From the IMG/VR virus record IMGVR_UViG_3300035698_022898, positions 22,235 through 86,234 of that record: DNA of 64,000 nucleotides; one strand, written 5' to 3'. Under the pieces are notes generated by a model that saw nothing but the letters and a program-made list of their open reading frames with translations, did no database searches and had not been told where the DNA came from. Numbering within the stretch: the first letter of the stretch is position 1; every line of letters starts with the position of its first letter. The position numbers and the translations under genes were made by a program. The DNA is from a virus. Positions 27,718 to 39,079 of this stretch are shown one piece after another.

Positions 27718-28659
27718 TTATGCTTTGCAGCACATATAGATTTGGGCTGTGAGCCCCGGCATCCCCGAGTACATGACCGACTCCGAAAGTACAACCAACA
27801 TCCTGGCTATCGAATCATCCCCGTTGGCTTTTCCTACCAACACTTTACTCAAGTATGTGAGTAAAGCATAACGGGATTTTTCTGCATCTTCTTCCAAAAT
27901 CTTCAACACAGGAATTATGCGTGTCCACTTGCTGGCAAAGTCACCTTTGTCTGCAAGCACCCTGCATACTTCGATAATAGATGCTTCATCGGGAGAAAAA
28001 GATTCAATGGCAGCCAGAGCCCCCGCGTCACTTGGAATATCTATTATTTGATCTAAAATCTTAATTCCTGCTCTCGGAGAACCTTCCGCTACTTTGACAA
28101 TAGCTTGTATGATGTTATCCGGAAAATTTACTCCCTCTTCTTTACAAATGGAGTTCAAAAGCCTGGTCATTTGTGACCGTTGCAGACTGGACACTTTGAA
28201 AGTAGAACACCTGTTTCGGATTGTTCCCAGAAGTTTTTGAGGATCCGTAGTACAAAGAATGAAGTATACATGATCAGGAGGATACTCCAATATACGAAGT
28301 AGAGCATTCTGAGCCTCGTTGGTCAGCTTATGACACTCGTCCAAGAGATATACTTTCGTAGGACCAGCCATGGGTCTGTATGACGCTTTGGCAGTCAAGT
28401 CCCTGATGGTGTCAATGCCCCTCAAATTGGAAGTATTCAAATACATGAAGTCCGTATCCGCACACTTGAGGTATTGTTGCAGGATGAATCCTAGGGTAGT
28501 CTTCCCACAACCTGATGGTCCGTGAAATAGAAACGCATGGGGAAGACCTGTTTCCCTTGCAACGATAGTTCCTAAGCTTTCCAGGATGCTTTCATTCCCC
28601 ATCATTTCAGCGAAGTTTCTGGGGCGATATTTTTCGGGGAGGTTCCTAGTTGCGTCCAT
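27718..28659 (-). CDS. Clamp loader AAA+ subunit (DnaX/RFC-like)
   Basis: KYRP..F, GPSGCGKTT, LLDECH.L...AQNALL..LE.PP, CTT.P..L..TI..RC. Confidence 0.92.
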   Translation of the reverse strand: MDATRNLPEKYRPRNFAEMMGNESILESLGTIVARETGLPHAFLFHGPSGCGKTTLGFILQQYLKCADTDFMYLNTSNLRGIDTIRDLTAKASYRPMAGPTKVYLLDECHKLTNEAQNALLRILEYPPDHVYFILCTTDPQKLLGTIRNRCSTFKVSSLQRSQMTRLLNSICKEEGVNFPDNIIQAIVKVAEGSPRAGIKILDQIIDIPSDAGALAAIESFSPDEASIIEVCRVLADKGDFASKWTRIIPVLKILEEDAEKSRYALLTYLSKVLVGKANGDDSIARMLVVLSESVMYSGMPGLTAQIYMCCKA

Positions 28660-28799
28660 GTTTTTTAACTCCTTTCCACATTAAGAAATGCTTATTGAAT
28701 TCCCTACCATCCCCGTGCCAGAAAAAGGAGAAGATTCTATTTCCCCCTACTCGGAGGATCATATCTTCTCTCATTATGCCCGTTTTTCCGTTACCGGAA

Positions 28800-29015
28800 T
28801 TACCTGCTAGGTATAAATTCACGTTTTATACACTCTTCAGTGTTGATTTTAAGATCGTGGATCTTTTGTTCGAAGTCTCTAAACTTCCTATCCAATTCCA
28901 TAAGATGCACATCCACATCTATTTCATGAATAGGGTTTTGAACTAGAGCAGCAAGGTCTGCCGCATCCTCGGTCACACTTTCCGTCCACGCTAGGAATAC
29001 TTCTTTCCGTGTCAT
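28800..29015 (-). CDS. Hypothetical protein
   Basis: AGGAGA RBS. Confidence 0.55.
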   Translation of the reverse strand: MTRKEVFLAWTESVTEDAADLAALVQNPIHEIDVDVHLMELDRKFRDFEQKIHDLKINTEECIKREFIPSR

Positions 29016-29023
29016 AGGTTCTC

Positions 29024-31705
29024 CTAATGAACTAGGTTGTACTCAACACCCTTCTTGTCTTTCCAGGTGTTGTCAGTAAAGGTGACTTCCGTCTTGTCGA
29101 ACCAACTCCCGTCAATGGGGGTGAACTCTGTTTCAATGTCAAGTGGAACGATAATCCAGGGGTGTTCCTCTCTGATGTATTCACAAGAGATAGTTCGTAT
29201 GGTAGACACCACTTTGTTTTGTTCTTCGGGAACAGTATCCGTGAGCATACAGTCATGTATCTGCCCTATAAGGTCAGAATCCCACCCAGCAGCCTTAGCT
29301 TCCTCGTTAACCTCATTTGCTGACCAAAGCAGACAGTGAAAAGCAGTCCCCTGAATCTTTGTATTGATAATCTCGTTTTTCGATAGGTATCCAGAGCGTC
29401 TATGTCCAAAGAACATTTCCACATACCCATCGCGAACAAAATCTTTGATGGATTTTTCTTGCCACTTCTTGGTAGCTGCAAGGCGTGTCCAGAAATCATC
29501 TTCAACATCTTTCATGTGTTTTTCAAAATCTTGGAATACATGAATGCCTATATCATGGAAGTGTTCTTGTATGGGTATACCGTCTTCGGTCTTCATATTG
29601 GTAACCCAACAGGCATCCCAAATAGTTCTGGCACATGCTTTATACCATGAACCGTAAACCATGGGAAAGACTTGTCCGTTTTTAGCATGGAAACGTAACA
29701 TCTTAGCAACTTGATCTTGGCGCAACTGAAAAATCTTCATTGCTTGGTCCCTGTGCATATCTGTAGTTGGGTCTTGAATATAATTTACTAACACAGGGTC
29801 CTGAGTATAACATGCTAAAATACGAATTTCAATCGCGCCGTAATCGTTTTCAGCCAAACGTCTTCCGGGTGAAGCTTTTACACCGCTCCTACAAGCTCTA
29901 CGTGCCGCTTCATCTCTTACAGGAACATTATGAAAATTAGGTTTACTACTAGAACTACGATATGTTCGAGCAGTATGTAGATCGAAGAAGGGGTGGATTT
30001 TTTCATCGTCGTCAATTTCCCTGAGGAATTGAGCCATATAAGTATCACATATCTTTTCTAACTTCCTCAAGCGCATGAGGCGTTTAATGAATGGATTATC
30101 CATCCCTACAAGCACTTCCTCATCTACGGAAGCAAGCCCGGACTCTGTTTTCTTTTCAGGAACCATCCCCATGAGGTCAAACAATAAGTACCTAAGATCT
30201 TTATCCGATCCTATTTTAATGCGACGACCGGTATTCTTTATAAAAATCTCTGCTTCGAGAGAATCTTGTAGTCGGATAGTTATTCTATTTATCTGTTCTC
30301 GTAGGCGTTTTTCTTCCTCAAGATAGTATTGTCTATCCATGGGGATGCCTTTCCGTTGCATCTCACCACATACAACTAATCCTTGTTGCCAGAAACGACG
30401 AGCCCGAAGCAACCCGTTCTTTCCCTTTAATTCTGCACGTTGTTCCAAGTACAGTCTCTTAGTGAGCAGAGAATCTATTCCGTTGTATTTTAAAACATGG
30501 GGGAGTGGCACTTCCTCCATACGATTAAAGAATTCTCCAGGAGCCGATTTTTTGTAAGGGTCTATGTCTTTATCATATTCTTCTACACCCCATCGAACAT
30601 AAGCTTGAAATTTTAATCCCGATACTTTCTTTCTATCATCAAGTAGGTGAGCCGTGTTCATGGAACACCAACTTAAATTCTGAACCTCAACACCGTGTAT
30701 TTCTCTATCCCACTCCCCCTCAAATTTAGAGTTATGAGCAATTTTTAGTATTTCTTTATGCTCTAAGATCCGTTTCCACATGTCCGTGATGCCCTTGAGT
30801 TGATTGGAGTCCCAATAAGACTTCCACATCATAGGCCAAGCATAAGCAAGATCATCGTATCCTAAAGAAGTGGTCAGTATTTTGCAACCGCGTCTGTACG
30901 GTTTCAAGGCGTTGGTTTCTATGTCATAAGAAATAGGAGGCTTTTGATCTAATACATTCTTAAACATTCCGATAACATCTTCATACTTATATAAACAATG
31001 TACAGTGGTTTCTATGTCCACAGGAGCTGGCATTTTCCTTTTGAGGCATTGTACAGCAAACTCTAAATCCTTACGAAAGACAGATAAGGTAACATCACTT
31101 CGGTCCTTTCTATCCCGATAAGCATAAGAAGGGTGAAATAAAGGTATAATGAGTGCGTTTAAGAAATGATCTGGAATACAGAACTTGCGAAACCGAGAAG
31201 CTGTGATTTGAGAGAACCTACCCATAAACATCGACTCCATAGGTGCTTTACCCAGAAGCCATATATGAGTAGGTTTAAGGTCTCTAATAGCCTTCATCAC
31301 ATAAGGCTTGCAACATTTTAATTCTGTTTTGTTCGGGGGTCTGTTGGCAGGGGGGCGACAATTTGCGGCATTGATTACATGTGCGTCTCTAAATACATTT
31401 ATTCCAAAGGATTTAAGTTCATCTCGAAACCAGTTACCTATAGATCCTTGTAGCGGCATCCCGTTATTATCTCCTACTTCATCCGGAGCCTCAAGAATAA
31501 TCAACAGTCGTTTCTCCCCTTTGCCCATCCAAGGCATTCTAGGAGTCACACAACCTTTGTCTAGCCCGCAAGACTCACACATAGGTGGGCCGGGGTTCAT
31601 ATAAGTGTAAGGATTTGGAAGAGATGTTCCAAAAGGGGTAGCATTCTTGGATAAACTGACACAAGTATTGCCGGGCATATCTTTAATAGAGAAAAATCCG
31701 TTCAT
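29024..31705 (-). CDS. polA: Family A DNA polymerase with N-terminal family-4 uracil-DNA glycosylase-like domain and 3'-5' exonuclease
   Basis: UDG4 motifs (CESC..C, EAP, CRPP.NR.P, HPSY); exo DIETN and HNSKF; polymerase motifs A DYGAIEIRILA, B R..AK.....VYG, C QIHD. Confidence 0.93.
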   Translation of the reverse strand: MNGFFSIKDMPGNTCVSLSKNATPFGTSLPNPYTYMNPGPPMCESCGLDKGCVTPRMPWMGKGEKRLLIILEAPDEVGDNNGMPLQGSIGNWFRDELKSFGINVFRDAHVINAANCRPPANRPPNKTELKCCKPYVMKAIRDLKPTHIWLLGKAPMESMFMGRFSQITASRFRKFCIPDHFLNALIIPLFHPSYAYRDRKDRSDVTLSVFRKDLEFAVQCLKRKMPAPVDIETTVHCLYKYEDVIGMFKNVLDQKPPISYDIETNALKPYRRGCKILTTSLGYDDLAYAWPMMWKSYWDSNQLKGITDMWKRILEHKEILKIAHNSKFEGEWDREIHGVEVQNLSWCSMNTAHLLDDRKKVSGLKFQAYVRWGVEEYDKDIDPYKKSAPGEFFNRMEEVPLPHVLKYNGIDSLLTKRLYLEQRAELKGKNGLLRARRFWQQGLVVCGEMQRKGIPMDRQYYLEEEKRLREQINRITIRLQDSLEAEIFIKNTGRRIKIGSDKDLRYLLFDLMGMVPEKKTESGLASVDEEVLVGMDNPFIKRLMRLRKLEKICDTYMAQFLREIDDDEKIHPFFDLHTARTYRSSSSKPNFHNVPVRDEAARRACRSGVKASPGRRLAENDYGAIEIRILACYTQDPVLVNYIQDPTTDMHRDQAMKIFQLRQDQVAKMLRFHAKNGQVFPMVYGSWYKACARTIWDACWVTNMKTEDGIPIQEHFHDIGIHVFQDFEKHMKDVEDDFWTRLAATKKWQEKSIKDFVRDGYVEMFFGHRRSGYLSKNEIINTKIQGTAFHCLLWSANEVNEEAKAAGWDSDLIGQIHDCMLTDTVPEEQNKVVSTIRTISCEYIREEHPWIIVPLDIETEFTPIDGSWFDKTEVTFTDNTWKDKKGVEYNLVH

Positions 31706-31896
31706 CGCACCCTCTCTGCAAAATCTTTAAATTGGGAACTATCTACATCCAAACCCTTGTAATATTGAAGGGTCACTACTGTCTTTTGAGTGTAGAAAAA
31801 GGTGACGAGTCGATTTGTCATATCCCCCCTTTCCAAGAGTTCTACTTCACGTTGTTTTTGAGCCCCGCCTGGAACACCTGCAAAATATATAATCAT
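31702..31896 (-). CDS. Small protein, MxIYxAG...RLxxFxY family (copy 1)
   Basis: ATGA overlap with polA; similar to 33591 and 34093. Confidence 0.65.
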   Translation of the reverse strand: MIIYFAGVPGGAQKQREVELLERGDMTNRLVTFFYTQKTVVTLQYYKGLDVDSSQFKDFAERVR

Positions 31897-32084
31897 AATA
31901 TCGGGTTGTTGCCCTTATTTTAAATTGGAATAGACCCTTGGCTACCCCCGGAGTCTAGGCCTCTCTGTGTGCGAATTTGCGGGTGAGAGCCTCTCAGAGC
32001 GTGCAGGGCAACAACACTGCAGTCCCTCTGAGCATGATTGTTGCCCGCTTCAACGATTGCGAATATGACTGCGGGATGGCAAGA
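31897..32084 (-). ncRNA. Putative structured intergenic RNA
   Basis: No ORF of note; consecutive hairpins (CUCAGAG/CUCUGAG enclosing UGCAG/CUGCA; CUCUC/GAGAG; UAGAC/GUCUA). Confidence 0.35.
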
Positions 32085-33116
32085 TTATGACTTGCCGCTA
32101 TTACTCACGGGCAGGGATATCAGGTGCTTGAAAGTACCTGAGGTAAACAACGCTGCCCCTTCCGCGATTGTGAGTATGGTTGCTTTCTCCAGAATCTGAG
32201 AAAGAAAACTCGGGTTGATGACAAAGCGAACCGGATCTCTTTTGAACTCGAAGTCCAGTTGCTTTTCGATCCAGCCCACTTCCTTCTCTGCGCGACAGGA
32301 GATTACCTTTCCAGTCACGTTGACGTCCACTCTCTTATCGAGAGAAACTTCACCCTCTGTCATAAAAGAGATGGAGTCAATAAGGTCTTTGAGTTCCCCA
32401 GGAAGTTTGAGTTTCGTCCCCTCCACGTCCAAAAATTTGGAAAGATCGGGGAAGTCGCCGACCAGGATGCGGGAACTGAAAACCACACCTTCTTCCGTTG
32501 TGAAGTGGATCCAGTTGTCGGTCATGGCATACTTGACGACGTTGAATTTGACAAGCTCAGCGACGGAACGTGCGGGGATAAGCACTTGCATACCCGTGTC
32601 GCTTTCCAGCTGGTAGATGCTGATTCTCGTTTCATCTGACGACATCAAACGAGGGCCGTCAACGTAAACGCAAGTCAAAACGCCTTGCGTCATGTCCGAA
32701 GCAGCGGCAAACATTGTGAGAAACATTCCCTGGATGAAATCGGGGGGAACAGGTTTCCACATTTCCGTAAGCCTGGGCAGATCGAGAACAGCAATCAGTT
32801 TTTCCGCTTCCTGTTCCACAGTAGTTGAAAGGCCGGCTTTGGTCTTTCCCGAGTTGACATTCAACTGACCGTCTTCAAAAGAAATGTCTATCTCTTCTTC
32901 CTGGATGCCGGCAAGCATCTTGTGAAGGTCATCGGCCTTAACCGAACAAGCGAAGTCTGTCTCAAAAGGGTGACAGATACAGAGTGTGTCGTTGTAGGTC
33001 ACAACCTCACCACCTGTGAAGATGAAGTGAGTAAACTGTTCAACGATTGCTTTCTTCGCCAAACCAGGTTTGACTTTAGTAAGAACAGTGATTGCGGTGT
33101 TTCGATTAAGCTTCAC
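32085..33116 (-). CDS. Sliding clamp (DnaN beta-like)
   Basis: GTG 33116 with AGGAGG; ~343 aa; SSDETRI, SR.L.G.FPD and INP.FL patterns of the beta clamp. Confidence 0.8.
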   Translation of the reverse strand: MKLNRNTAITVLTKVKPGLAKKAIVEQFTHFIFTGGEVVTYNDTLCICHPFETDFACSVKADDLHKMLAGIQEEEIDISFEDGQLNVNSGKTKAGLSTTVEQEAEKLIAVLDLPRLTEMWKPVPPDFIQGMFLTMFAAASDMTQGVLTCVYVDGPRLMSSDETRISIYQLESDTGMQVLIPARSVAELVKFNVVKYAMTDNWIHFTTEEGVVFSSRILVGDFPDLSKFLDVEGTKLKLPGELKDLIDSISFMTEGEVSLDKRVDVNVTGKVISCRAEKEVGWIEKQLDFEFKRDPVRFVINPSFLSQILEKATILTIAEGAALFTSGTFKHLISLPVSNSGKS

Positions 33117-33201
33117 GGAAACCTCCTGTAATTTCAATAAGAAATAGCACAATTAAAAATGGTATGCAAGCATTACCACTACCCCAATTTAATTTTCTCC
33201 A

Positions 33202-33579
33202 TTAGTGTGTTATTTCAGAATAAATCCTTTCTTTTTTACCTTTTAAGTAAGCAACAAAACCAATGGCGTCCTCTACAGCATCGAACAAAGTGTTTTCTGA
33301 AAAAGATAAATTTCCTGTTTCTAATTTTTTCCAGTAATATTTTTTATCGCTTCCTTTAACAATGATAAACCCTTTAGGTAAATCCTTTATAGTATACATT
33401 TGTTTTTGAGTATGAACTTTTTTAATCGACTTCTTTTTAACACTTTGAGTTTTGGATAAAACACCTTCATTGAAACTGTTGATAGCCAAAGAAAAATTTG
33501 GTTGTGAACCTATAAATCCTCCCAATGCAACCGAAAGAAGTATAATACCAAGTAAAGTAAACGCTTTCGGTGTGTCCAT
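33202..33579 (-). CDS. Membrane-anchored hypothetical protein
   Basis: N-terminal hydrophobic helix. Confidence 0.6.
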   Translation of the reverse strand: MDTPKAFTLLGIILLSVALGGFIGSQPNFSLAINSFNEGVLSKTQSVKKKSIKKVHTQKQMYTIKDLPKGFIIVKGSDKKYYWKKLETGNLSFSENTLFDAVEDAIGFVAYLKGKKERIYSEITH

Positions 33580-33590
33580 AAGACCCCCTT

Positions 33591-33782
33591 TTATAGGTTA
33601 TTCATATCCTCAGGTAGTACAGAGTTGGTTATATTTTGCCAACTACGCCTACGGAACTTAAATCCTGCTAGGAATAAATCATAAAAAGAAAATATAACCG
33701 TGGGTTTAACTCCAGCCTTTTCACAAGCACCCTCTACACAATCCCACAAATCGTCTCCTGCCCCTGCTAAATAGATATGCAT
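33591..33782 (-). CDS. Small protein, MxIYxAG family (copy 2)
   Basis: GGAG RBS; MHIYLAG...VIFSFY. Confidence 0.65.
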   Translation of the reverse strand: MHIYLAGAGDDLWDCVEGACEKAGVKPTVIFSFYDLFLAGFKFRRRSWQNITNSVLPEDMNNL

Positions 33783-33795
33783 AATTCTCCAAATT

Positions 33796-33826
33796 AAAAG
33801 GGGAGGGGGTGTTGCCCGCCTCCCCT
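33796..33826 (-). terminator. Intrinsic terminator
   Basis: AGGGGAGG/CCUCCCCU stem followed by UUUUAAUUU. Confidence 0.6.
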
Positions 33827-33848
33827 GTAGATAGGGTCAGAGCCCTCC

Positions 33849-34127
33849 TTACCCTACATGAAACAAGTGCCAAATATCGAAGTTTGCTCTGTTTTCCCAG
33901 GAGCCTAAGTAGACCCCCTTTTTGGGTAATTTATGTCCAGTTCCTACAGCTTCAAACGTGTGTGTGATTTTGACGGCATCCGTATCCACCTCTATCCACA
34001 TGCAGGCTTGATCGTCTTGTGTATCTACTCGTATAATTCTTTCCCAAATGCATTTGCCACTTGCGGGCGGTATTTCTAAGGCAAATTTACCACTACTCGG
34101 GATTAGGTACTTCCAAATCGTTTTCAT
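33849..34127 (-). CDS. Conserved phage hypothetical protein
   Basis: MKTIWKY...W.EVD...GTGH...YLGS...WHLF. Confidence 0.65.
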   Translation of the reverse strand: MKTIWKYLIPSSGKFALEIPPASGKCIWERIIRVDTQDDQACMWIEVDTDAVKITHTFEAVGTGHKLPKKGVYLGSWENRANFDIWHLFHVG

Positions 34128-34290
34128 CTTCCACTCCCAGAGCCCGGAACACCGTTTCGCAATCCCCTTTATAGTAGAATGCCAACAGTCTGGCATAATG
34201 AGGACTCCGTTGAAGAACTAGATCACGCATACCTCGTTCCAAATCCGGGCTCTTCATTTGGGGAAAGTTCCCTGCGTGAAATATGATCAT
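34093..34290 (-). CDS. Small protein, MxIYxAG family (copy 3)
   Basis: MIIFHAG...RLLAFYY. Confidence 0.65.
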   Translation of the reverse strand: MIIFHAGNFPQMKSPDLERGMRDLVLQRSPHYARLLAFYYKGDCETVFRALGVEDENDLEVPNPE

Positions 34291-34296
34291 GTACTC

Positions 34297-34674
34297 TTAC
34301 CCTTTGTTAGCAGGGTTGAGGTGTTTGGGGATAATGAGTCCTGTGGGAGGAGCAGCTACTTTGGAGGGGCCTTGAATATGGGCCTCCTTAGCCCTGGCTA
34401 CGGACTCTTCCCACTCAATCATTTTCCGAACAAGGATGGAATTGGCCTTGTAAGTGATTACAATTTTGTCCTTGGAAACAGCTTTGCAGCTTTTGAAATC
34501 CGAGAATATCAACCAGTCTTCAATTTGAAGACCTTTCATCATAGGTTGTTCGGGGTTGGTGTGGACAATTATACTCCTGGGATTATGCCACAAATCATCA
34601 CCAGGGACTTTGTAATAGGCTATAAGTTGCCCGGAGACGAGTTCTGCCACATGTAATTCTTTTTCCTTAACCAT
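34297..34674 (-). CDS. Hypothetical protein
   Basis: GGAGG RBS, overlaps the dpdA stop. Confidence 0.6.
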   Translation of the reverse strand: MVKEKELHVAELVSGQLIAYYKVPGDDLWHNPRSIIVHTNPEQPMMKGLQIEDWLIFSDFKSCKAVSKDKIVITYKANSILVRKMIEWEESVARAKEAHIQGPSKVAAPPTGLIIPKHLNPANKG

Positions 34675-35776
34675 TGTTTCCTCCCTGTAAGTCCTTCAAA
34701 CAGAAGAGCTTGGGTTGTGATTGTTGTTTTACCTTATGTTGAAACACCCAGGGCCATTCTGGAATACTTTTTTCCAGATCTAAATAATAAAGGATGTTTA
34801 GTTCATCCCTTTTCCGATAATCGTTAGACAAGCCTCGAATAAGAATTTTCTCGACACTACGTTGACCGTCAACGGCTTTTCCGTCCCAACGCTCGTCTTC
34901 TTCGAGTTTGTAGTCTGACGGTTCCATGCGAAACTCGGATTCTCCGAGAACGAACCCTTTTTCTTCAAAGTAGCGAGTAATGAATTTTCGCTCAGCATCG
35001 GTAAAGTTTTTCAAATGCTTTCCTTCAATCTTAATAGAAGGTGAGCGGGTAGAGACGACAACGGACCACGCAGGCTCGTCATAAATGTATTCTCCTGACC
35101 TCCATCTAGGTACACACACAATGCCATATTTTCCGAACTTGACCCAACTGGTACTGTCACAACTATACCAGGGGTAACGATTGACAAGCTTTGCAGATGT
35201 GACCGCGAACCCATGTACTTTGACAAGGGGCATTCCTTTGTCGTCGGTTAACATGGTAGACCAAATTCTGTCAAGGTTGGGGATAAGCACTTTGGGAGGG
35301 TTAGGAATCATACCGCCCATAGCAATGTAAGTATATCCCAATTCCAAGTACATTTCCAACCACTTTTCATCACACCCGAAATGAAATACTGGAATAGGTG
35401 TCAACCCGAAAGACTCTAGGTACTTCTGATTATCCCATGTCGCTTCTGGGTTGTTAATCACATCCAAATTTGCGTAAACCTCCAGATGGTCTTTGTACTT
35501 TAGAATAAATTGTACATAACCGTCTCTGTACTCTAAATATATTTTCCTACTACTGCATATTTCAGAAAGAGGACAAGATAAACAGGGCTCCGCATTTTCC
35601 CAAGTACCGTAGTCCCTACTATTGGGACATTGGTGAACATCTAAAAAAGGGTAAACGTCAAATTTCCTATCCTCAAGATAGGAGCCCATATAGGTAGCCT
35701 TTTTGTCTTTACGCACCAGAGTGTTGTAAAGACTAGGGGCACCAGAGTCAAGAAATATTCTTACATTCTCGGTCAC
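34667..35776 (-). CDS. dpdA: DpdA-like (TGT-fold) DNA 7-deazaguanine transglycosylase
   Basis: FLDSGA.S, NLDVI, PVFH.G, IAMGG, VHGFA.T and PWYS.DSTSW motifs; in a queD/queE/folE cluster. Confidence 0.8.
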   Translation of the reverse strand: MTENVRIFLDSGAPSLYNTLVRKDKKATYMGSYLEDRKFDVYPFLDVHQCPNSRDYGTWENAEPCLSCPLSEICSSRKIYLEYRDGYVQFILKYKDHLEVYANLDVINNPEATWDNQKYLESFGLTPIPVFHFGCDEKWLEMYLELGYTYIAMGGMIPNPPKVLIPNLDRIWSTMLTDDKGMPLVKVHGFAVTSAKLVNRYPWYSCDSTSWVKFGKYGIVCVPRWRSGEYIYDEPAWSVVVSTRSPSIKIEGKHLKNFTDAERKFITRYFEEKGFVLGESEFRMEPSDYKLEEDERWDGKAVDGQRSVEKILIRGLSNDYRKRDELNILYYLDLEKSIPEWPWVFQHKVKQQSQPKLFCLKDLQGGNNG

Positions 35777-36771
35777 AGAAGCCTCATCTCGTTGATCATT
35801 TTGGGGATGGCTTTTTCACCCATTCTCCGAAGAACTTTTTGAGTAACTTTAATTTGAGTATCAAATAATTGGTTATTTACGGGGTTCTGAATCATATGGA
35901 TTTTGTCAACTAAATCATTCCAGCTTGTATAAATGAATCTTTTGGGGTATAATTCAGGATAACTGAGGTCATTGGGCACCAAGGGGATACACCCACAGAA
36001 AAGAGCTTCCTGCATGGCAATTCCCCACGTTTCTTGTAAAGCAAAGGAAACGGCTATTTTTCCAGTGCCCAACAATTCATAGTACGACCGTTTATCCATG
36101 CAAGCATTTTTGGTTCTGAGGAATCTTGTTTCTGGTAATTGAAATTCCAAGTTATCGAAAAGATCCGGTCGTTTTTCAGGATCCAAACGGTGAGGAAACA
36201 GGATGCACTCCCTTTCGGCGTCGGGTTCTGTTTCTGGAATAAATTCGTCGGGGTACATGGGGAATCTTGTTACTTTCACCTTTTTCGCGGATCTGGTCTT
36301 TAACAAAAGATTCCTGTGATAATCTGTGGCTACAAAGATGCAGTCTATGAAGTTGAACCAGGCATTCTCTTGAAAAGAAGCCCAATATCGCATTCCTTTA
36401 CGAGTAAGGAAATCCTGGGAATCGTAAGTCCCTGCGTGAAGGCACCCAGCGATTTTGAAATTTATGTCATTTCCTTGACGGATGTATTGCAAAGCTTCCA
36501 GCCCAGGAAACCACAAATCATGGAAAAACAGTATGTCTCCGTCCTTCAACAAATGTAGATTTTTTATGAACCATTGAAGTTGGGAAAGCTTGTAATGGTT
36601 GGTAGAAACCACATCCAAGAAAGCACCTGTGATGATGGAATCTGTCAGAGCTATTCCGGGAACGTCAATCACAGGAATGTCATGATTGGCAAACTCCCGC
36701 AGAAACCACTTTGCCCATTGGCCTGAGTATCTTTCTTCCAGAGGCTCTATGGAGAAGTTCCAAATTCTCAT
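35773..36771 (-). CDS. Glycosyltransferase (GT-B, GT4-like)
   Basis: E.RY..QW, D.W.PG, HAGTYD, FPHR..PEK, QETWGIAMQEAL..GC.PLVP...SYPE; 4-nt overlaps with both neighbours. Confidence 0.85.
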   Translation of the reverse strand: MRIWNFSIEPLEERYSGQWAKWFLREFANHDIPVIDVPGIALTDSIITGAFLDVVSTNHYKLSQLQWFIKNLHLLKDGDILFFHDLWFPGLEALQYIRQGNDINFKIAGCLHAGTYDSQDFLTRKGMRYWASFQENAWFNFIDCIFVATDYHRNLLLKTRSAKKVKVTRFPMYPDEFIPETEPDAERECILFPHRLDPEKRPDLFDNLEFQLPETRFLRTKNACMDKRSYYELLGTGKIAVSFALQETWGIAMQEALFCGCIPLVPNDLSYPELYPKRFIYTSWNDLVDKIHMIQNPVNNQLFDTQIKVTQKVLRRMGEKAIPKMINEMRLL

Positions 36772-38090
36772 AAAATTCCCAACCTTCCACAAATTGCGTA
36801 ATATGTGGAAATATCTTCGAGACTAATCTCGAGTACTTTGGATTGTTTCAAATGATCTTTTACAGTCTTTCCCGAAAAGTCGGACATGTTGTAAGGGTCG
36901 ATTTTATACATTCTAAACCAAACAAGATCTGAATCTTGAATATCCCTTTTGTACACGATTTCCTCATTCAAAAAGGAATTGGGGATAAAACTCGGAAGCA
37001 GTCTCATTGGACGTTCTGTGAGAATAAACCCGTCTTCCCAAGTAACTTCGGCCGCCGTTCCGTGATAAGGTTGAAAGAACTGACCCAACCCTGCTTCGGT
37101 CCCGTTAGTTTGCACCCTGCTGTACAGTTCTTCGGGCTTAAACCCGTATTTTCGCAGGAAGTCTCCCGTCATATTGAGAGTCTTGAAAGTTTCTCCAGGG
37201 AAGAAAGTCATCGTAAGCCAGAAAATATTTGTGGGTTGGTTTTCCGCAAGTTCCATACAGGAACGAATTACACCGCTTTTTTTCATTTCCGAAGCCACTT
37301 CGGGGGAAGCAGTTTCCAAACCGACTTCAAGAAGGCGTACACCCTGTTCACGGAAAGTTTCGTGTCCGTATTTTTGGGTGTACTTGAGAACGCTTATGGG
37401 TTCTGCCAAGGCGATGAAGTTAAAGCCCCCCAATTTGCGGGCATATTCCAAAATGTGGTAAGCACGATCAGTATCGAAAAGGAAGTTTTCATCAGTGAAA
37501 TGCAGATTTCTTATTCCACGATCGTGCATTTCATGAAGAATATTACAAACTACACTCTCAGGCAACGCTAATCGTTTTCGTTCACAATTCCTTGTGGCGG
37601 GGCAAAAAGTGCAACCCTTGGGGCATCCGTATGAAGTAAAAAACGGATAAACCTGACCTTCGTATTCTCGTAAGTGCATATCACAATCACTCAGGAGAAT
37701 TGTTTGAAAATCCTCATAATATCTATGATACTTGGAAATCCCTTCAAGTATGCGATGATTGGGGATTACTTCCGAGGGCAAACAGTATCTGTCGATCAGC
37801 GGGTAATAGCCGAAGAAGACTTTGTAGCCCTCAAGGAAACGATTTATTACTTGACAAGCCTCAATCTGCGGGTATGACCACAAAGCAACCATGTACTTCT
37901 TTGCTTTGGGAAGATTGTCCAAATTGGCAACAGTGAAATCCTCAATCAGGAGGGTATCCAAACCATCTGCCTTACATGAAGCATAGAGAATGTAAGGTAG
38001 GTAGCAGAAGCTTCCCCTGTTAAACTCGGTAGATGCAGGGTCTATGATAACTACATCGTAGACCTTATCCTTCGACAGATTTACAGTCAT
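36768..38090 (-). CDS. Radical SAM enzyme (class B / BchE-like architecture)
   Basis: TSYGCPKGCTFC (CxxxCxxC), F.DENF, GLET; Rossmann-like N-terminal extension. Confidence 0.85.
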   Translation of the reverse strand: MTVNLSKDKVYDVVIIDPASTEFNRGSFCYLPYILYASCKADGLDTLLIEDFTVANLDNLPKAKKYMVALWSYPQIEACQVINRFLEGYKVFFGYYPLIDRYCLPSEVIPNHRILEGISKYHRYYEDFQTILLSDCDMHLREYEGQVYPFFTSYGCPKGCTFCPATRNCERKRLALPESVVCNILHEMHDRGIRNLHFTDENFLFDTDRAYHILEYARKLGGFNFIALAEPISVLKYTQKYGHETFREQGVRLLEVGLETASPEVASEMKKSGVIRSCMELAENQPTNIFWLTMTFFPGETFKTLNMTGDFLRKYGFKPEELYSRVQTNGTEAGLGQFFQPYHGTAAEVTWEDGFILTERPMRLLPSFIPNSFLNEEIVYKRDIQDSDLVWFRMYKIDPYNMSDFSGKTVKDHLKQSKVLEISLEDISTYYAICGRLGIL

Positions 38091-38433
38091 AATAAGCCTC
38101 CGCTCCATTTTCGTTATCCTCAAATACCGAGGTGTAAGCAGCACCGAATCTGTCTATCAGTTCGGCACACATCATTTCGCATGACATTTTACCTAAGTCT
38201 TGGTCCCACCAGTTATCTTTAAGGAACTTTTCGACGAGCATTTTTTTGCTGATAAATTCAATATCTCTATCATCATGAAATACCGGCCATTTCATAGTAA
38301 TGTGGAATACATGACGATGGGGAGTCTTTAGGAAGGATACAGCTTCAATGGGACATTCGGGCCAACAATGGATAGCGGGGAAACTTGTCTTTATGATAAC
38401 CGAGGATATTTTCCTAACGCTCATAATTGTCAT
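38065..38433 (-). CDS. T-fold QueD paralogue (DpdL-like, putative CDG decarboxylase)
   Basis: IH.WP, LKTPHRHVF (LxxxHRHxF), DRDIEF, SCE, V.ED.ENG. Confidence 0.7.
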   Translation of the reverse strand: MTIMSVRKISSVIIKTSFPAIHCWPECPIEAVSFLKTPHRHVFHITMKWPVFHDDRDIEFISKKMLVEKFLKDNWWDQDLGKMSCEMMCAELIDRFGAAYTSVFEDNENGAEAYYDCKSVEG

Positions 38434-38460
38434 TTCCGACTCCGGGTAAAGTGTTAATCA

Positions 38461-38490
38461 AAGAAGGGGTTGTGGAGGTAACCCCTTCTT
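38461..38490. terminator. Perfect 11-bp hairpin after folE
   Basis: aagaaggggtt / aaccccttctt. Confidence 0.5.
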
Positions 38491-38500
38491 CTCAAAGACT

Positions 38501-39079
38501 TTAACCTTGTTTAATGGATAAGTGAATGAGGGATAGCGCCTCCCCTCGAGCTTTGGCGTCTTTTTCATGAACACCATACACCGCTGATGTTGTCATAGAG
38601 GCTCCACCATACTGGTTAACACCCCTACAAGTCATACAGCCGTGTTCTGCTCTCATGACCACAATAACCCCAGCGGGATCTACGGTTTTGACGATGCAGT
38701 CCAGAACTTGTTTACAGAGGTTCTCCTGCAACTGAGGACGAGCTGCGAAATGGTTGACAATTCTTGAGGGCTTGGACGCTCCCAAAAGAAAATCTTTGGG
38801 AACGTAAGCGATCCAAGCCTTCCCGTAAAAGGGAAGGAAGTGGTGGGAACACATGGAAACGAAATGAATGGTGTCTAGTAGGATCAGCTCGTTATACTTC
38901 TCGTCGTTGGGGAATACCGTGACTTTGGGGGGCTTCTCATTCAAGCCTTTTAAGAACTCCGTACACCACATTTTTGCAATGCGTTTCGGAGTTTCCTTCA
39001 GGTTGGGGTCAGACAAGTCCAACCCCAACCCTTTGGATAGAATCTCCGTTAGGAGATCGGTAATCAGTGCTTGGTTCAT
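38501..39079 (-). CDS. folE: GTP cyclohydrolase I
   Basis: TP.R.AK, SMCSHHFLPF.G, G.SK..R, RPQLQE.L, H.CM..RG. Confidence 0.95.
   Translation of the reverse strand: MNQALITDLLTEILSKGLGLDLSDPNLKETPKRIAKMWCTEFLKGLNEKPPKVTVFPNDEKYNELILLDTIHFVSMCSHHFLPFYGKAWIAYVPKDFLLGASKPSRIVNHFAARPQLQENLCKQVLDCIVKTVDPAGVIVVMRAEHGCMTCRGVNQYGGASMTTSAVYGVHEKDAKARGEALSLIHLSIKQG

What the first reader, a model, noticed from the sequence alone, without database searches (positions are those of the whole stretch)
31702..35776. DpdA appears split: three ~64-aa paralogues resemble its missing N-terminal barrel strands
Seen: the DpdA-like ORF starts only six residues before the IFLDSGA motif. Three nearby small ORFs share M-x-I-[YF]-x-A-G...[RV][LI]xxF[FY]: MIIYFAG..RLVTFFY (31702-31896), MHIYLAG..VIFSFY (33591-33782) and MIIFHAG..RLLAFYY (34093-34290). 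From recall of this family, many full-length phage TGT/DpdA-like proteins start MKIYLAG...L.S[FY].Y before FLDSGA. Inference: the peptides complete the TIM barrel in trans as interchangeable subunits that could switch sequence or base specificity.
Basis: partly seen in the sequence, partly recalled or inferred. Interest (0 to 1): 0.72.

Follow-up and report, generated by a model that had tools for sequence, protein, structure and literature searches.

The report
Split phage DpdA with four barrel-quarters
This phage's DNA-modifying enzyme DpdA is encoded without the first quarter of its barrel fold, and four small conserved genes scattered among the replication genes each encode a different version of that quarter, a layout that could let one enzyme core work with exchangeable parts.

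Summary
The DpdA-like ORF (34667-35776, minus strand) starts six residues before IFLDSGA. An in-frame stop lies 14 codons upstream. Its model aligns to solved DpdA/TGT structures only from nine residues before the general-acid Asp, so strands b1-b2 are missing.

The window holds four, not three, ~60-aa paralogues: A 31702-31896, B 33591-33782, C 34093-34290 and a missed D 28646-28822. Profiles built only from other sequences pick them out of 1114 window ORFs; B is weakest. All four have syntenic orthologues in related IMG/VR phages.

The same module occurs in relatives fused to the N-terminus of DpdA, fused to its C-terminus, in tandem arrays of 2-4, or free. Of 80 related loci, 72 carry free copies.

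A complex prediction for core plus C scored 0.86 against a best control of 0.00. It places the peptide between the last and first core strands.

Trans-completion is well supported. The idea that the four are interchangeable specificity subunits is inferred, from strands shared between types and exposed loops conserved only within a type.

I found no paper describing this. This scan has already followed up the same layout on at least seven other genomes.

The parts
34667..35776 (-). DpdA catalytic core (369 aa), three-quarters of a TGT-type TIM barrel (b3-b8 plus C-terminal subdomain); starts six residues before IFLDSGA
   Evidence: phrog_887 E 3e-36. tblastn to annotated phage DpdA, e.g. Iggy 39% identity, E 1e-35. 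AF2 pLDDT 82.4 with six barrel-type strands. VIA-align: 7ui4_A Z 10.6, model 1-340 = chain 86-409. D10 and D207 invariant in 30 sequences. In-frame stop 14 codons upstream.
34093..34290 (-). Module C (65 aa): quarter-barrel b1-a1-b2, signature AGNFPxM...RLxSF[FY]; first module gene downstream of dpdA
   Evidence: 49% identical over residues 1-47 to residues 1-47 of the fused 384-aa DpdA P0045, E 4e-12. Profile E 5.4e-5. Orthologues directly after dpdA in L005-L010 and L016. Complex prediction 0.86 against best control 0.00.
33591..33782 (-). Module B (63 aa): most divergent type, signature FAAVG...LFSFYDL..G.FQFRK.SW; lies before the clamp gene
   Evidence: Orthologues in 9 loci ORFs, E 5e-13 to 4e-4. 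Independent profile E 0.019, fourth-best of 1114 ORFs. hhalign against fused N-extensions 89.2%. Natural fusion of a B-type module with another module type in P0188.
31702..31896 (-). Module A (64 aa): signature AGVPGGxQ..RE...NRLVTFFY; between clamp and polymerase, with a 4-nt overlap onto the polymerase start
   Evidence: Fused-only profile E 1.7e-6. Independent profile E 1.3e-11 and hhalign 98.3%. Orthologues in L006-L010 at 44-50% identity.
28646..28822 (-).
   Evidence: Fused-only profile E 1.2e-5. Independent profile E 1.7e-8 and hhalign 97.7%. Orthologues in L006-L010 at 37-50% identity.
35773..39079 (-). Upstream context in the same direction: GT-like ORF 35773-36792, radical SAM 36768-38144, conserved 122-aa ORF 38065-38433, GTP cyclohydrolase I 38501-39079
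   Evidence: Pfam: Radical_SAM E 4.4e-12, weak Glycos_transf_1, GTP_cyclohydroI E 2.2e-52. The 122-aa ORF has no Pfam hit. Same order in L005-L010.
27718..33152 (-). Replication genes among which modules A, B and D sit: beta-clamp 32085-33152, family A polymerase with UDG domain 29024-31705, clamp loader 27718-28659
   Evidence: Pfam DNA_pol3_beta_2, DNA_pol_A + UDG + exo, DNA_pol3_delta2/AAA. Conserved order DpdA-C-B-clamp-A-pol-D-loader in L007 and L008.

Best explanation
The phage makes its DNA guanine transglycosylase in pieces. The 369-aa DpdA chain holds the catalytic residues and strands b3-b8 of a TGT-type TIM barrel, but not b1-a1-b2. A ~60-aa mini-protein supplies that quarter. Its b2 pairs with the core's first strand (IFLD, carrying the general-acid Asp10). 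Its b1 pairs with the core's last barrel strand (WYSCDS, carrying Asp207). This closes the barrel.

Module C, the gene nearest dpdA and the type found fused to close relatives, is the default partner. Modules A, B and D keep the same two strands but carry different, type-specific b1/a1 loops and tails. These sit on the substrate face by TIM-barrel topology. I infer that they are alternative partners giving holoenzymes that differ in DNA context, substrate or recruitment.

Shown:
- homology of the modules to the fused N-terminal module;
- conservation and synteny of all four;
- the fusion patterns;
- the truncated fold of the core.

Predicted: docking of C.

Inferred: docking of A, B and D, exchangeability, and any effect on specificity.
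For: 1. The core is truncated.
- The model has six barrel-type strands.
- The top structural matches are DpdA 7ui4_A (Z 10.6, rmsd 3.8, 219 aligned, model 1-340 = chain 86-409), TGT 3unt_A (Z 9.9, from chain residue 93) and ArcTGT 1iq8_A (Z 9.6, from 86). Each alignment starts nine residues before the general-acid Asp.
- No upstream reading frame is available.

2. The modules are homologous to the cis module.
- Profiles give the E-values listed in the observation check.
- C matches P0045 at E 4e-12.

3. Fusion evidence.
- N-fused in 30 of the 120 best homologues.
- C-terminally fused in P0068, P0076, L014 and L020. The same module is free in L018, with 67-85% identity and E 7e-29 to 7e-31.
- Tandem arrays of 2-4 modules precede the core in 5 of the 150 best profile hits.
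- No other fusion partner appears among those 150.

4. Co-occurrence.
- Of 80 IMG/VR loci, 72 have at least one free module and 64 have at least two modules in all.
- 45 of the 51 loci without a cis module have a free one.
- 0 of 4 genomes with single-chain DpdA have one. The same profile finds 4 in the window's own genome.

5. Complex prediction, core plus C.
- Scores 0.86, 0.87 and 0.86; best of 3 controls 0.00.
- The mark was reached by 58 of 80 solved complexes and 2 of 110 mismatched pairs.
- The runs agree in at least 90% of contacts, and the partner pLDDT is at least 80.
- Peptide residues 32-38 touch core 6-10, and peptide 2-4 touch core 203-209.
- Because TGT and DpdA barrels are solved, this pass may reflect likeness to them.

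6. Subfunctionalisation.
- All four types are conserved in position and signature in L005-L010.
- Predicted contact columns: within-type identity 0.46, between-type 0.28.
- Non-contact columns: within-type 0.42, between-type 0.11.

7. ORF A alone has a poor Atlas model (pTM 0.22, pLDDT 0.44), as expected of a fragment.
Against: - AF2 did not model the cis module of the natural fusion P0045. Residues 1-55 have pLDDT under 50, so the cis arrangement is not confirmed by a fold.
- Only C was folded with the core. A, B and D were not.
- Profile comparison of the modules with the N-terminal quarter of classical single-chain DpdA (Vid5, Iggy, Kpn2-P2) is not significant; the best probability is 27%.
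- Sequence profiles of the family reach solved DpdA only marginally (7ui4_A, E 0.012) and not over the module.
- 29 of 80 loci have a cis module and mostly still carry free ones. A simple split-gene picture does not explain this.
- Tandem cis arrays fit simultaneous use as well as alternative use.
- L014 and L020 have a single, C-fused module and no others. One module therefore suffices for some phages.
- L074 has none in the 4.3 kb available.
- Contact positions come from a predicted model.
Confidence: 0.6

Rival explanations
1. Only module C is the structural partner of DpdA. A, B and D descend from it but now do something else. They might tether or regulate the neighbouring replisome proteins (clamp, polymerase, clamp loader), or complete some other incomplete fold.
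For: - C is the type fused to close relatives and always lies next to dpdA.
- A, B and D each sit beside a replication gene in a conserved order.
- Some relatives manage with one module (L014 and L020).
Against: - A, B and D keep the two strands that make the predicted interface.
- The own genome holds no second DpdA/TGT-like core.
- In more distant loci the extra modules cluster next to dpdA rather than next to replication genes (offsets).
- Among the 150 best profile hits, the module is fused only to DpdA or to other modules.
Confidence: 0.18
2. All modules are used at once. Core plus several quarters form one larger assembly, for example domain-swapped oligomers or an extra sheet or barrel made of quarters. 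They are not alternative one-to-one partners.
For: - Single polypeptides carry 2-4 tandem modules before the core (P0137, P0170, P0185, P0244, P0262). L015 is the same, read from DNA.
- Two-module proteins without a core exist (P0121, P0142, P0179, P0188, P0189).
Against: - The core offers one gap of two strands.
- Module numbers vary from 1 to 5 per locus, which is awkward for a fixed assembly.
- Each internal module of the tandem forms starts with Met, as expected of recently joined genes.
- No fold of a tandem form could be run.
Confidence: 0.12
3. The short DpdA core is self-sufficient. The mini-proteins are regulators or inhibitors, or unrelated small phage proteins that merely resemble the N-terminal segment.
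For: - 77 of the 120 best homologues are short forms, so the short form is the common state.
- L074 shows no module.
- The modules match no Pfam or PHROG family.
Against: - A six-stranded open barrel lacking b1-b2 is not a known stable TGT architecture. All solved matches have about 85-92 residues before the aligned start.
- Short forms almost always co-occur with modules: 45 of 51, plus C-terminal fusions.
- The module is found fused at either end of the core.
Confidence: 0.08
4. The small ORFs are chance open frames or gene-calling artefacts.
For: They are short, about 60 aa, and match no family library.
Against: - All four have syntenic orthologues at 35-50% identity in phages whose DpdA is about 52% identical.
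- 810 clusters match the profile at E up to 1e-3 among 1.84 billion representatives.
- 135 of the 140 short hits start at residues 1-3.
Confidence: 0.02

Closest known systems
Single-chain phage DpdA (PHROG 887; Pseudomonas phage Iggy, Pantoea phage Vid5, Klebsiella phage vB_Kpn2-P2)
   Same: - Homologous catalytic core: 33-41% identity over query residues ~86-277.
- Shares the FLDSGA and RYPWYSCDSSSW motifs.
- Sits beside FolE/QueD and the clamp gene.
   Different: - These enzymes carry about 55-85 residues (VFMAAVYTN...ILESWHYV) before FLDSGA in the same chain.
- Their genomes have no free module: 0 of 4 at E up to 1.
- Sequence similarity between that N-terminal quarter and the modules is not significant.
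Long-form members of the same family (e.g. P0045; P0071, which one source names BcepGomrgp31)
   Same: 47-50% identical core, and the same module (MKIYLAG...RLxSYY) directly before FLDSGA.
   Different: - The module is in cis.
- 29 of 30 keep a Met where the short forms start.
- Most such loci still carry free modules.
Bacterial DpdA of the Dpd restriction-modification system (Salmonella Montevideo, PDB 7ui4)
   Same: - Best structural match: Z 10.6, rmsd 3.8, 219 aligned.
- The general-acid Asp is in register.
- Both are DNA-guanine transglycosylases that use the TIM fold (passages of PMC10164549).
   Different: - 7ui4 is a complete (b/a)8 barrel in one chain.
- It has Ins1 and Ins2 loops on b1/a1 and b2/a2.
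- It has a CXCX2CX22H zinc site.
- It needs the DpdB ATPase.
- The window protein aligns only from chain residue 86 and shows no such Cys motif.
Eukaryotic TGT heterodimer QTRT1/QTRT2
   Same: A TGT-superfamily enzyme that needs a second polypeptide. QTRT2 (6fv5_A) is a structural match at Z 8.8.
   Different: Both subunits there are full barrels. That description is from recall, not from a call. Here the partner is a fragment of the barrel itself.
Exchangeable specificity subunits of Type I restriction-modification enzymes (HsdS); functional analogy only, from recall
   Same: One catalytic machine combined with alternative small specificity-bearing subunits, sometimes switched by repeat tracts.
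   Different: HsdS is an unrelated fold and an independent domain, not a piece of the catalytic fold.

Membership tests
Phage DpdA (DNA 7-deazaguanine transglycosylase, PHROG 887) | Significant sequence match to the family | tested here: met
   phrog_887 E 3e-36 over residues 82-275. 180 phage records matched by tblastn, with features annotated DpdA or queuine tRNA-ribosyltransferase. No Pfam TGT hit.
Phage DpdA (DNA 7-deazaguanine transglycosylase, PHROG 887) | Catalytic Asp after b3 (xLDSGA) and second Asp in the DS[ST]SW strand | tested here: met
   D10 and D207 are invariant in the 30-sequence alignment. D10 is in register with Asp95 of 7ui4 and Asp102 of 3unt by the start of the structural alignments. 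The role of D207 as nucleophile is inferred by analogy with Asp256 (passages of PMC10164549).
Phage DpdA (DNA 7-deazaguanine transglycosylase, PHROG 887) | Complete (b/a)8 barrel in one polypeptide | tested here: not met
   The model has six barrel-type strands. Alignments to 7ui4, 3unt and 1iq8 begin at chain residues 86-93. No upstream frame is available. The missing quarter is encoded separately.
Phage DpdA (DNA 7-deazaguanine transglycosylase, PHROG 887) | Deazaguanine precursor genes in the neighbourhood | tested here: met
   GTP cyclohydrolase I E 2.2e-52 and radical SAM E 4.4e-12, in the same direction upstream. I did not check for QueC or QueE.
Phage DpdA (DNA 7-deazaguanine transglycosylase, PHROG 887) | Guanine-to-deazaguanine exchange activity on DNA | not testable with these tools
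   Needs an enzyme assay or nucleoside analysis of virion DNA.
Bacterial DpdA / TGT proper | Structural zinc site CXCX2CX22H | tested here: not met
   The sequence has no CxCxxC motif. No Cys is invariant in the family alignment. The motif is taken from passages of PMC10164549.
DpdA quarter-barrel module family (unnamed; defined here) | About 45-90 aa, starts at Met with M-x-[ILV]-[YFW]-x-A-[GAST], then about 20-35 residues, then R-[LIVM]-x-[ST]-[FYW]-[FYWH] | tested here: met
   A, C and D match fully. B has V-I-F-S-F-Y in place of R-L-x-S-F-Y.
DpdA quarter-barrel module family (unnamed; defined here) | Encoded in a phage genome that also encodes a DpdA of this family | tested here: met
   The own genome has 4 modules and 1 DpdA. 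72 of 80 related loci carry free modules.
DpdA quarter-barrel module family (unnamed; defined here) | Binds the core between b8 and b3 | tested here: inconclusive
   Prediction only, and only for C: score 0.86 against best control 0.00. The cis module of P0045 was not modelled by AF2.

The most novel reading that the evidence does not exclude
One catalytic three-quarter TIM barrel is served by a family of swappable quarter-barrel subunits that carry the DNA-facing b1/a1 and b2/a2 loops. A phage could then retarget or broaden its guanine hypermodification by choosing among four to six mini-proteins. In some relatives individual modules are switched on and off by slippage of an (AG)n tract that encodes their conserved RERE motif. 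This would be a natural combinatorial split enzyme and a phage counterpart of phase-variable restriction-modification specificity.
Probability: 0.3. Interest if true: 0.88.

Novelty: new variant of a known kind. Interest (0 to 1): 0.74.

Why it matters
DpdA enzymes let phages replace guanine with 7-deazaguanines and so escape restriction. How their target motifs are set is an open question. Iggy has a strict GA motif and CAjan has two motifs (abstract and title seen in the listing).

A natural enzyme whose TIM barrel is closed by a separately encoded quarter would matter in three ways, given that several conserved alternative quarters are available:
- It would be a rare natural case of fragment complementation inside a single fold.
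- It would give a testable handle on DpdA specificity.
- It would be a ready-made scaffold for engineering DNA-modifying enzymes.

The family is large. 810 module clusters match at E up to 1e-3, and 1049 DpdA relatives were found. The modules are absent from Pfam and PHROGs.

Tried and rejected
- **Pfam and PHROGs on the three small ORFs:** no hit.
- **phmmer of DpdA against PDB sequences:** only a chance histone hit.
- **blastn of the region against phage genomes:** no match.
- **Foldseek of the core model against PDB:** nothing at E up to 1e-3, only weak generic TIM barrels. VIA-align wide then found DpdA and TGT.
- **Family profile A5 against PDB:** 7ui4_A only at E 0.012. Its weak first stretch (i-E 2800) over the module is not usable.
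- **Module profile A4 against PDB:** a chance MKIY match to a pyrophosphatase, E 0.48.
- **AF2 of the natural fusion P0045:** the module region was not modelled, pLDDT under 50. This neither supports nor refutes the cis arrangement.
- **hhalign of the modules against the N-terminal quarter of Vid5, Iggy and Kpn2-P2:** best probability 27%, inconclusive.
- **Pairwise BLAST of ORF C against the C-fused P0068:** no match to its tail, E 4.7. The link was made instead through the free L018 module.
- **ESM Atlas for ORF A:** only unnamed or DUF4367-tagged clusters at 0.91-0.93 with low shared features. I treat these as uninformative.
- **First thought that MKIYLAG marks a nucleoside 2-deoxyribosyltransferase-like N-terminus (from recall):** dropped, because the only fusion partner seen is DpdA.
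- **Literature:** searches returned no paper on a split DpdA or on these mini-proteins. The DpdA lists in the supplements of PMC6884629 and PMC10516641 may include short forms, and I could not look.
- **Papers, and what I saw of each:** PMC10516641 and PMC10164549, passages only. PMC6884629, PMC10484667 and PMC7544227, listing and start of abstract only.

Full report
**Setting.** The window is part of an 86,234-base IMG/VR virus record, estimated 98% complete. All genes discussed lie on the minus strand in one direction:
- GTP cyclohydrolase I, 38501-39079
- a conserved 122-aa ORF, 38065-38433
- radical SAM, 36768-38144
- a GT-like ORF, 35773-36792
- DpdA, 34667-35776
- a 125-aa ORFan, 34297-34674
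- module C, 34093-34290
- a DUF7352 ORF
- module B, 33591-33782
- a 125-aa ORF
- beta-clamp, 32085-33152
- module A, 31702-31896
- family A polymerase with a UDG domain, 29024-31705
- a 71-aa ORF
- module D, 28646-28822
- clamp loader, 27718-28659

**The observation.** The DpdA-like ORF begins MTENVR-IFLDSGA at a GTG that overlaps the stop of the upstream gene. An in-frame stop lies 14 codons upstream, and the open frame is 382 aa. No N-terminal extension can be hidden.

The ORF is a real DpdA relative. It matches phrog_887 at E 3e-36. tblastn finds 180 phage records, with features annotated DpdA or queuine tRNA-ribosyltransferase, for example Iggy at 39% identity and E 1e-35. There is no Pfam hit.

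**The core is truncated relative to the fold.**
- An AF2 model with a 30-row alignment (pLDDT 82.4) shows six barrel-type strands: 8-9, 100-102, 130-132, 150-154, 186-189 and about 205.
- Foldseek found nothing clear.
- The exhaustive VIA-align search put the TGT superfamily on top:
  - bacterial DpdA 7ui4_A: Z 10.6, rmsd 3.8, 219 aligned, model 1-340 against chain 86-409;
  - TGT 3unt_A: Z 9.9, from chain residue 93;
  - ArcTGT 1iq8_A: Z 9.6, from chain residue 86;
  - QTRT2: Z 8.8.
- In each case the alignment starts nine residues before the general-acid Asp (Asp95 in 7ui4, per passages of PMC10164549 read).
- The first 85-92 residues of the solved enzymes therefore have no counterpart. In DpdA those residues hold b1, Ins1, b2 and Ins2.
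- D10 and D207 are invariant in the family alignment.

**The recalled N-terminal pattern is real.** I examined the 120 best of 1049 homologues.
- 77 start 12 or fewer residues before the FLDSGA strand.
- 30 carry 45-75 extra residues of the form MKIYLAG...RLxSYY.
- Two more carry 86 and 97 extra residues.
- Classical single-chain DpdAs (Vid5, Iggy, Kpn2-P2) also have about 55-85 residues before FLDSGA, reading VFMAAVYTN...ILESWHYV.

**The small ORFs are homologous to that module, and there are four.**
The next unrelated ORF scored 0.46.
- A profile of 86 free modules from other loci, with no window rows, gave A 1.3e-11, D 1.7e-8, C 5.4e-5 and B 0.019. The next ORF scored 0.26.
- As families (window sequence plus orthologues), hhalign against the fused N-extensions gave 98.3% (A), 97.7% (D), 94.7% (C) and 89.2% (B).
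- ORF C is 49% identical over residues 1-47 to residues 1-47 of P0045, a 384-aa full-length relative (E 4e-12).
- The own genome contains exactly these four modules and one DpdA. Note that the profile includes the window rows.

**They are real genes.**
- All four have orthologues in the closest IMG/VR contigs (L005-L010), at 35-50% identity.
- They keep the same order, DpdA-C-B-clamp-A-polymerase-D-clamp loader, while the DpdA cores are only about 52% identical.
- Each type has its own conserved signature:
  - A: AGVP[GA]GxQ..RE...NRLVTFFY
  - B: FAAVG...LFSFYDL..G.FQFRK.SW
  - C: AGNFPxM...RLxSF[FY]
  - D: AGNxGxGKxG..RE...RLxSYFW
- In 1.84 billion representative proteins the module profile finds 810 clusters at E up to 1e-3 and 57 at E up to 1e-10.
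- Of the 150 best, 140 are 100 aa or shorter, and 135 of those match from residues 1-3.

**Fusion patterns.** Besides the N-terminal fusions there are three further arrangements.
- **C-terminal fusion.** P0068, P0076 and the DpdA ORFs of L014 and L020 have a short N-terminus and a module at the C-terminus. The same module is a separate ORF starting at the DpdA stop in L018. It is 85%, 71% and 67% identical to the tails of P0068, P0076 and L020 (E 2e-30, 7e-31 and 7e-29). The independent profile recognises it as a module at E 4e-4 among 21,927 ORFs.
- **Tandem arrays with a core.** Five of the 150 best hits are DpdA proteins with two to four tandem modules before FLDSGA: P0137, P0170, P0185, P0244 and P0262. 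L015 shows the same layout read from DNA.
- **Modules joined without a core.** Five hits are two modules joined together.

One hit, P0125, is repeat junk. No other fusion partner occurs among the 150. A module that can sit at either end of the core is what a strand pair closing the ring between b8 and b3 would allow.

**Co-occurrence.** I examined 80 IMG/VR loci with flanks of up to 10 kb. Hits counted at E up to 1e-3 with three profiles.
- 29 have a cis module.
- 72 have at least one free module.
- 74 have any module.
- 64 have two or more modules in all.
- Of the 51 without a cis module, 45 have a free one.

The six loci with none break down as follows:
- L014 and L020 are the C-fused forms.
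- L067 has a weak cis module (E 0.005).
- L065 and L076 have divergent candidates directly after dpdA. I judged these by eye only.
- L074 has none. Its DpdA lies at the contig edge, with 4.3 kb of sequence downstream.

Four complete genomes with single-chain DpdA (Nadezda, Kpn2-P2, Vid5, Iggy) have no match at E up to 1.

**Docking.** Complex prediction with the core (alignment A3) and module C (alignment A6) gave these results:
- Scores 0.86, 0.87 and 0.86, against a best of three controls of 0.00.
- The mark was reached by 58 of 80 solved complexes and 2 of 110 mismatched pairs. These counts hold only roughly, because my own alignments were used.
- The runs agree in at least 90% of contacts, and the partner pLDDT is at least 80.
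- Peptide residues 32-38 (YARLLAF) lie against core residues 6-10 (RIFLD).
- Peptide residues 2-4 lie against core 203-209 (WYSCDST).
- The peptide helix lies against the core's last helix, 321-341.

This is the b8-b1-b2-b3 order of a TIM barrel. Because complete TGT and DpdA barrels are solved, the pass may come from likeness to them. It shows that the peptide fits as the missing quarter, not that it binds.

Against this, AF2 failed to model the module of the natural fusion P0045 (residues 1-55, pLDDT under 50). ORF A alone has a poor Atlas model (pTM 0.22), as expected of a fragment.

**Are the four interchangeable?** This is inference. The evidence for it:
- In a joint alignment of the four types from the window and L005-L010 (22 sequences), the strand columns are shared between types.
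- Positions 8-12, the start of the b1/a1 loop, are 0.76-1.00 identical within a type except at position 11 (0.38). Between types they are 0.03-0.35 identical.
- Over positions 1-52, predicted contact columns have within-type identity 0.46 and between-type 0.28. Non-contact columns have 0.42 and 0.11.
- Each type therefore conserves its own exposed surface on a shared docking frame.
- By TIM-barrel topology the b-to-a loops lie on the catalytic face.
- In bacterial DpdA, the b1/a1 insertion helps form the DNA-binding surface. The b2/a2 insertion flanks the active site and was proposed to contribute to sequence recognition (passages of PMC10164549).
- 29 of 30 long forms keep a Met 3-14 residues before the FLDSGA strand, exactly where short forms start. 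Chance expectation is 28%. The sequences are related, so the binomial tail of 2e-15 overstates the case. This leaves room for a core-only isoform even where a module is fused.

The evidence against, or neutral:
- Only C was folded with the core.
- Tandem cis arrays fit simultaneous use as well as alternative use.
- Some phages have a single module.

**Comparison with what is known.** The core is a member of the phage DpdA family by sequence, fold and catalytic residues. It fails the feature of a complete barrel in one chain, and it lacks the zinc motif of bacterial DpdA and TGT.
- The DpdA subfamily papers describe bDpdA and DpdA1-4. In the passages I saw they do not mention split forms or accessory mini-proteins. 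In PMC10516641, 'split' occurs only in the name of a clustering method.
- Four literature searches returned nothing on this layout. Supplements were closed.
- Notes of this scan show the same layout already followed up on at least seven other genomes, with the same verdict. My tests agree with them.
- I did not see the following stated in those summaries: the C-terminal (permuted) fusions, the register of the structural alignments, the within-type versus between-type analysis, and the repeat tracts.

**Verdict.** Trans-completion of a split DpdA barrel is well supported by homology, synteny, fusion patterns and a controlled complex prediction. Exchangeable specificity remains a reasoned hypothesis. 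I class it as a new variant of a known kind, with interest 0.74.

Noticed in passing
L035:9787-9906, L041:320-439, L046:9784-9903, L021:9665-9784, L034:10586-10705 (related IMG/VR loci, not the window): In many related loci the conserved RERE motif of a module is encoded by an (AG)n tract of 10-15 nt. In several loci the reading frame changes exactly there, so b1 and b2 lie in different frames. By a heuristic count, modules with a tract of at least 10 nt are 17 in-frame and 10 shifted. One of the 17, L041:320, is in fact shifted by eye. Modules without a tract are 113 in-frame and 9 shifted. This could be slippage-driven on/off switching of single modules, or assembly error. In L011 the break is in a G8 run. 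The window's own modules have no tract longer than 6 nt.
   Followed up: partly
L006:14391-14822: In one relative the A-type module is fused at its C-terminus to a DUF4326 domain (Pfam E 9.8e-20).
   Followed up: partly
window 34667-34720 (C-terminus of DpdA): DpdA ends ...QSQPKLFCLKDLQGGNNG. The QxxLF-like stretch resembles a beta-clamp-binding motif (from recall), and the phage encodes its own clamp. Another first-stage note (e1-6126367) makes the same suggestion for polymerase, ligase and DpdA. Not tested here.
   Followed up: no
window 35560-35630 (DpdA residues ~50-75): The window's DpdA carries a Cys-rich insert (CPNSRDYGTWENAEPCLSCPLSEIC) that is absent from the relative P0068 (gap in the BLAST alignment). 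It is modelled with low confidence. Another note (e1-6126368) links it to a similar segment on the SSB.
   Followed up: no
window 34297-34674 and 33202-33579: Two 125-aa ORFs sit between dpdA and module C, and between module B and the clamp. They have no Pfam or PHROG family at significant level. Among the 80 related loci, the first has no homologue and the second has one weak hit.
   Followed up: partly
window 35773-38433: dpdA is preceded by a GT-like ORF, a 458-aa radical SAM protein and a 122-aa ORF with no Pfam hit. All three are conserved with this DpdA subgroup in 16-17 loci ORFs. This suggests further processing of the inserted base, and other notes of the scan address it.
   Followed up: no
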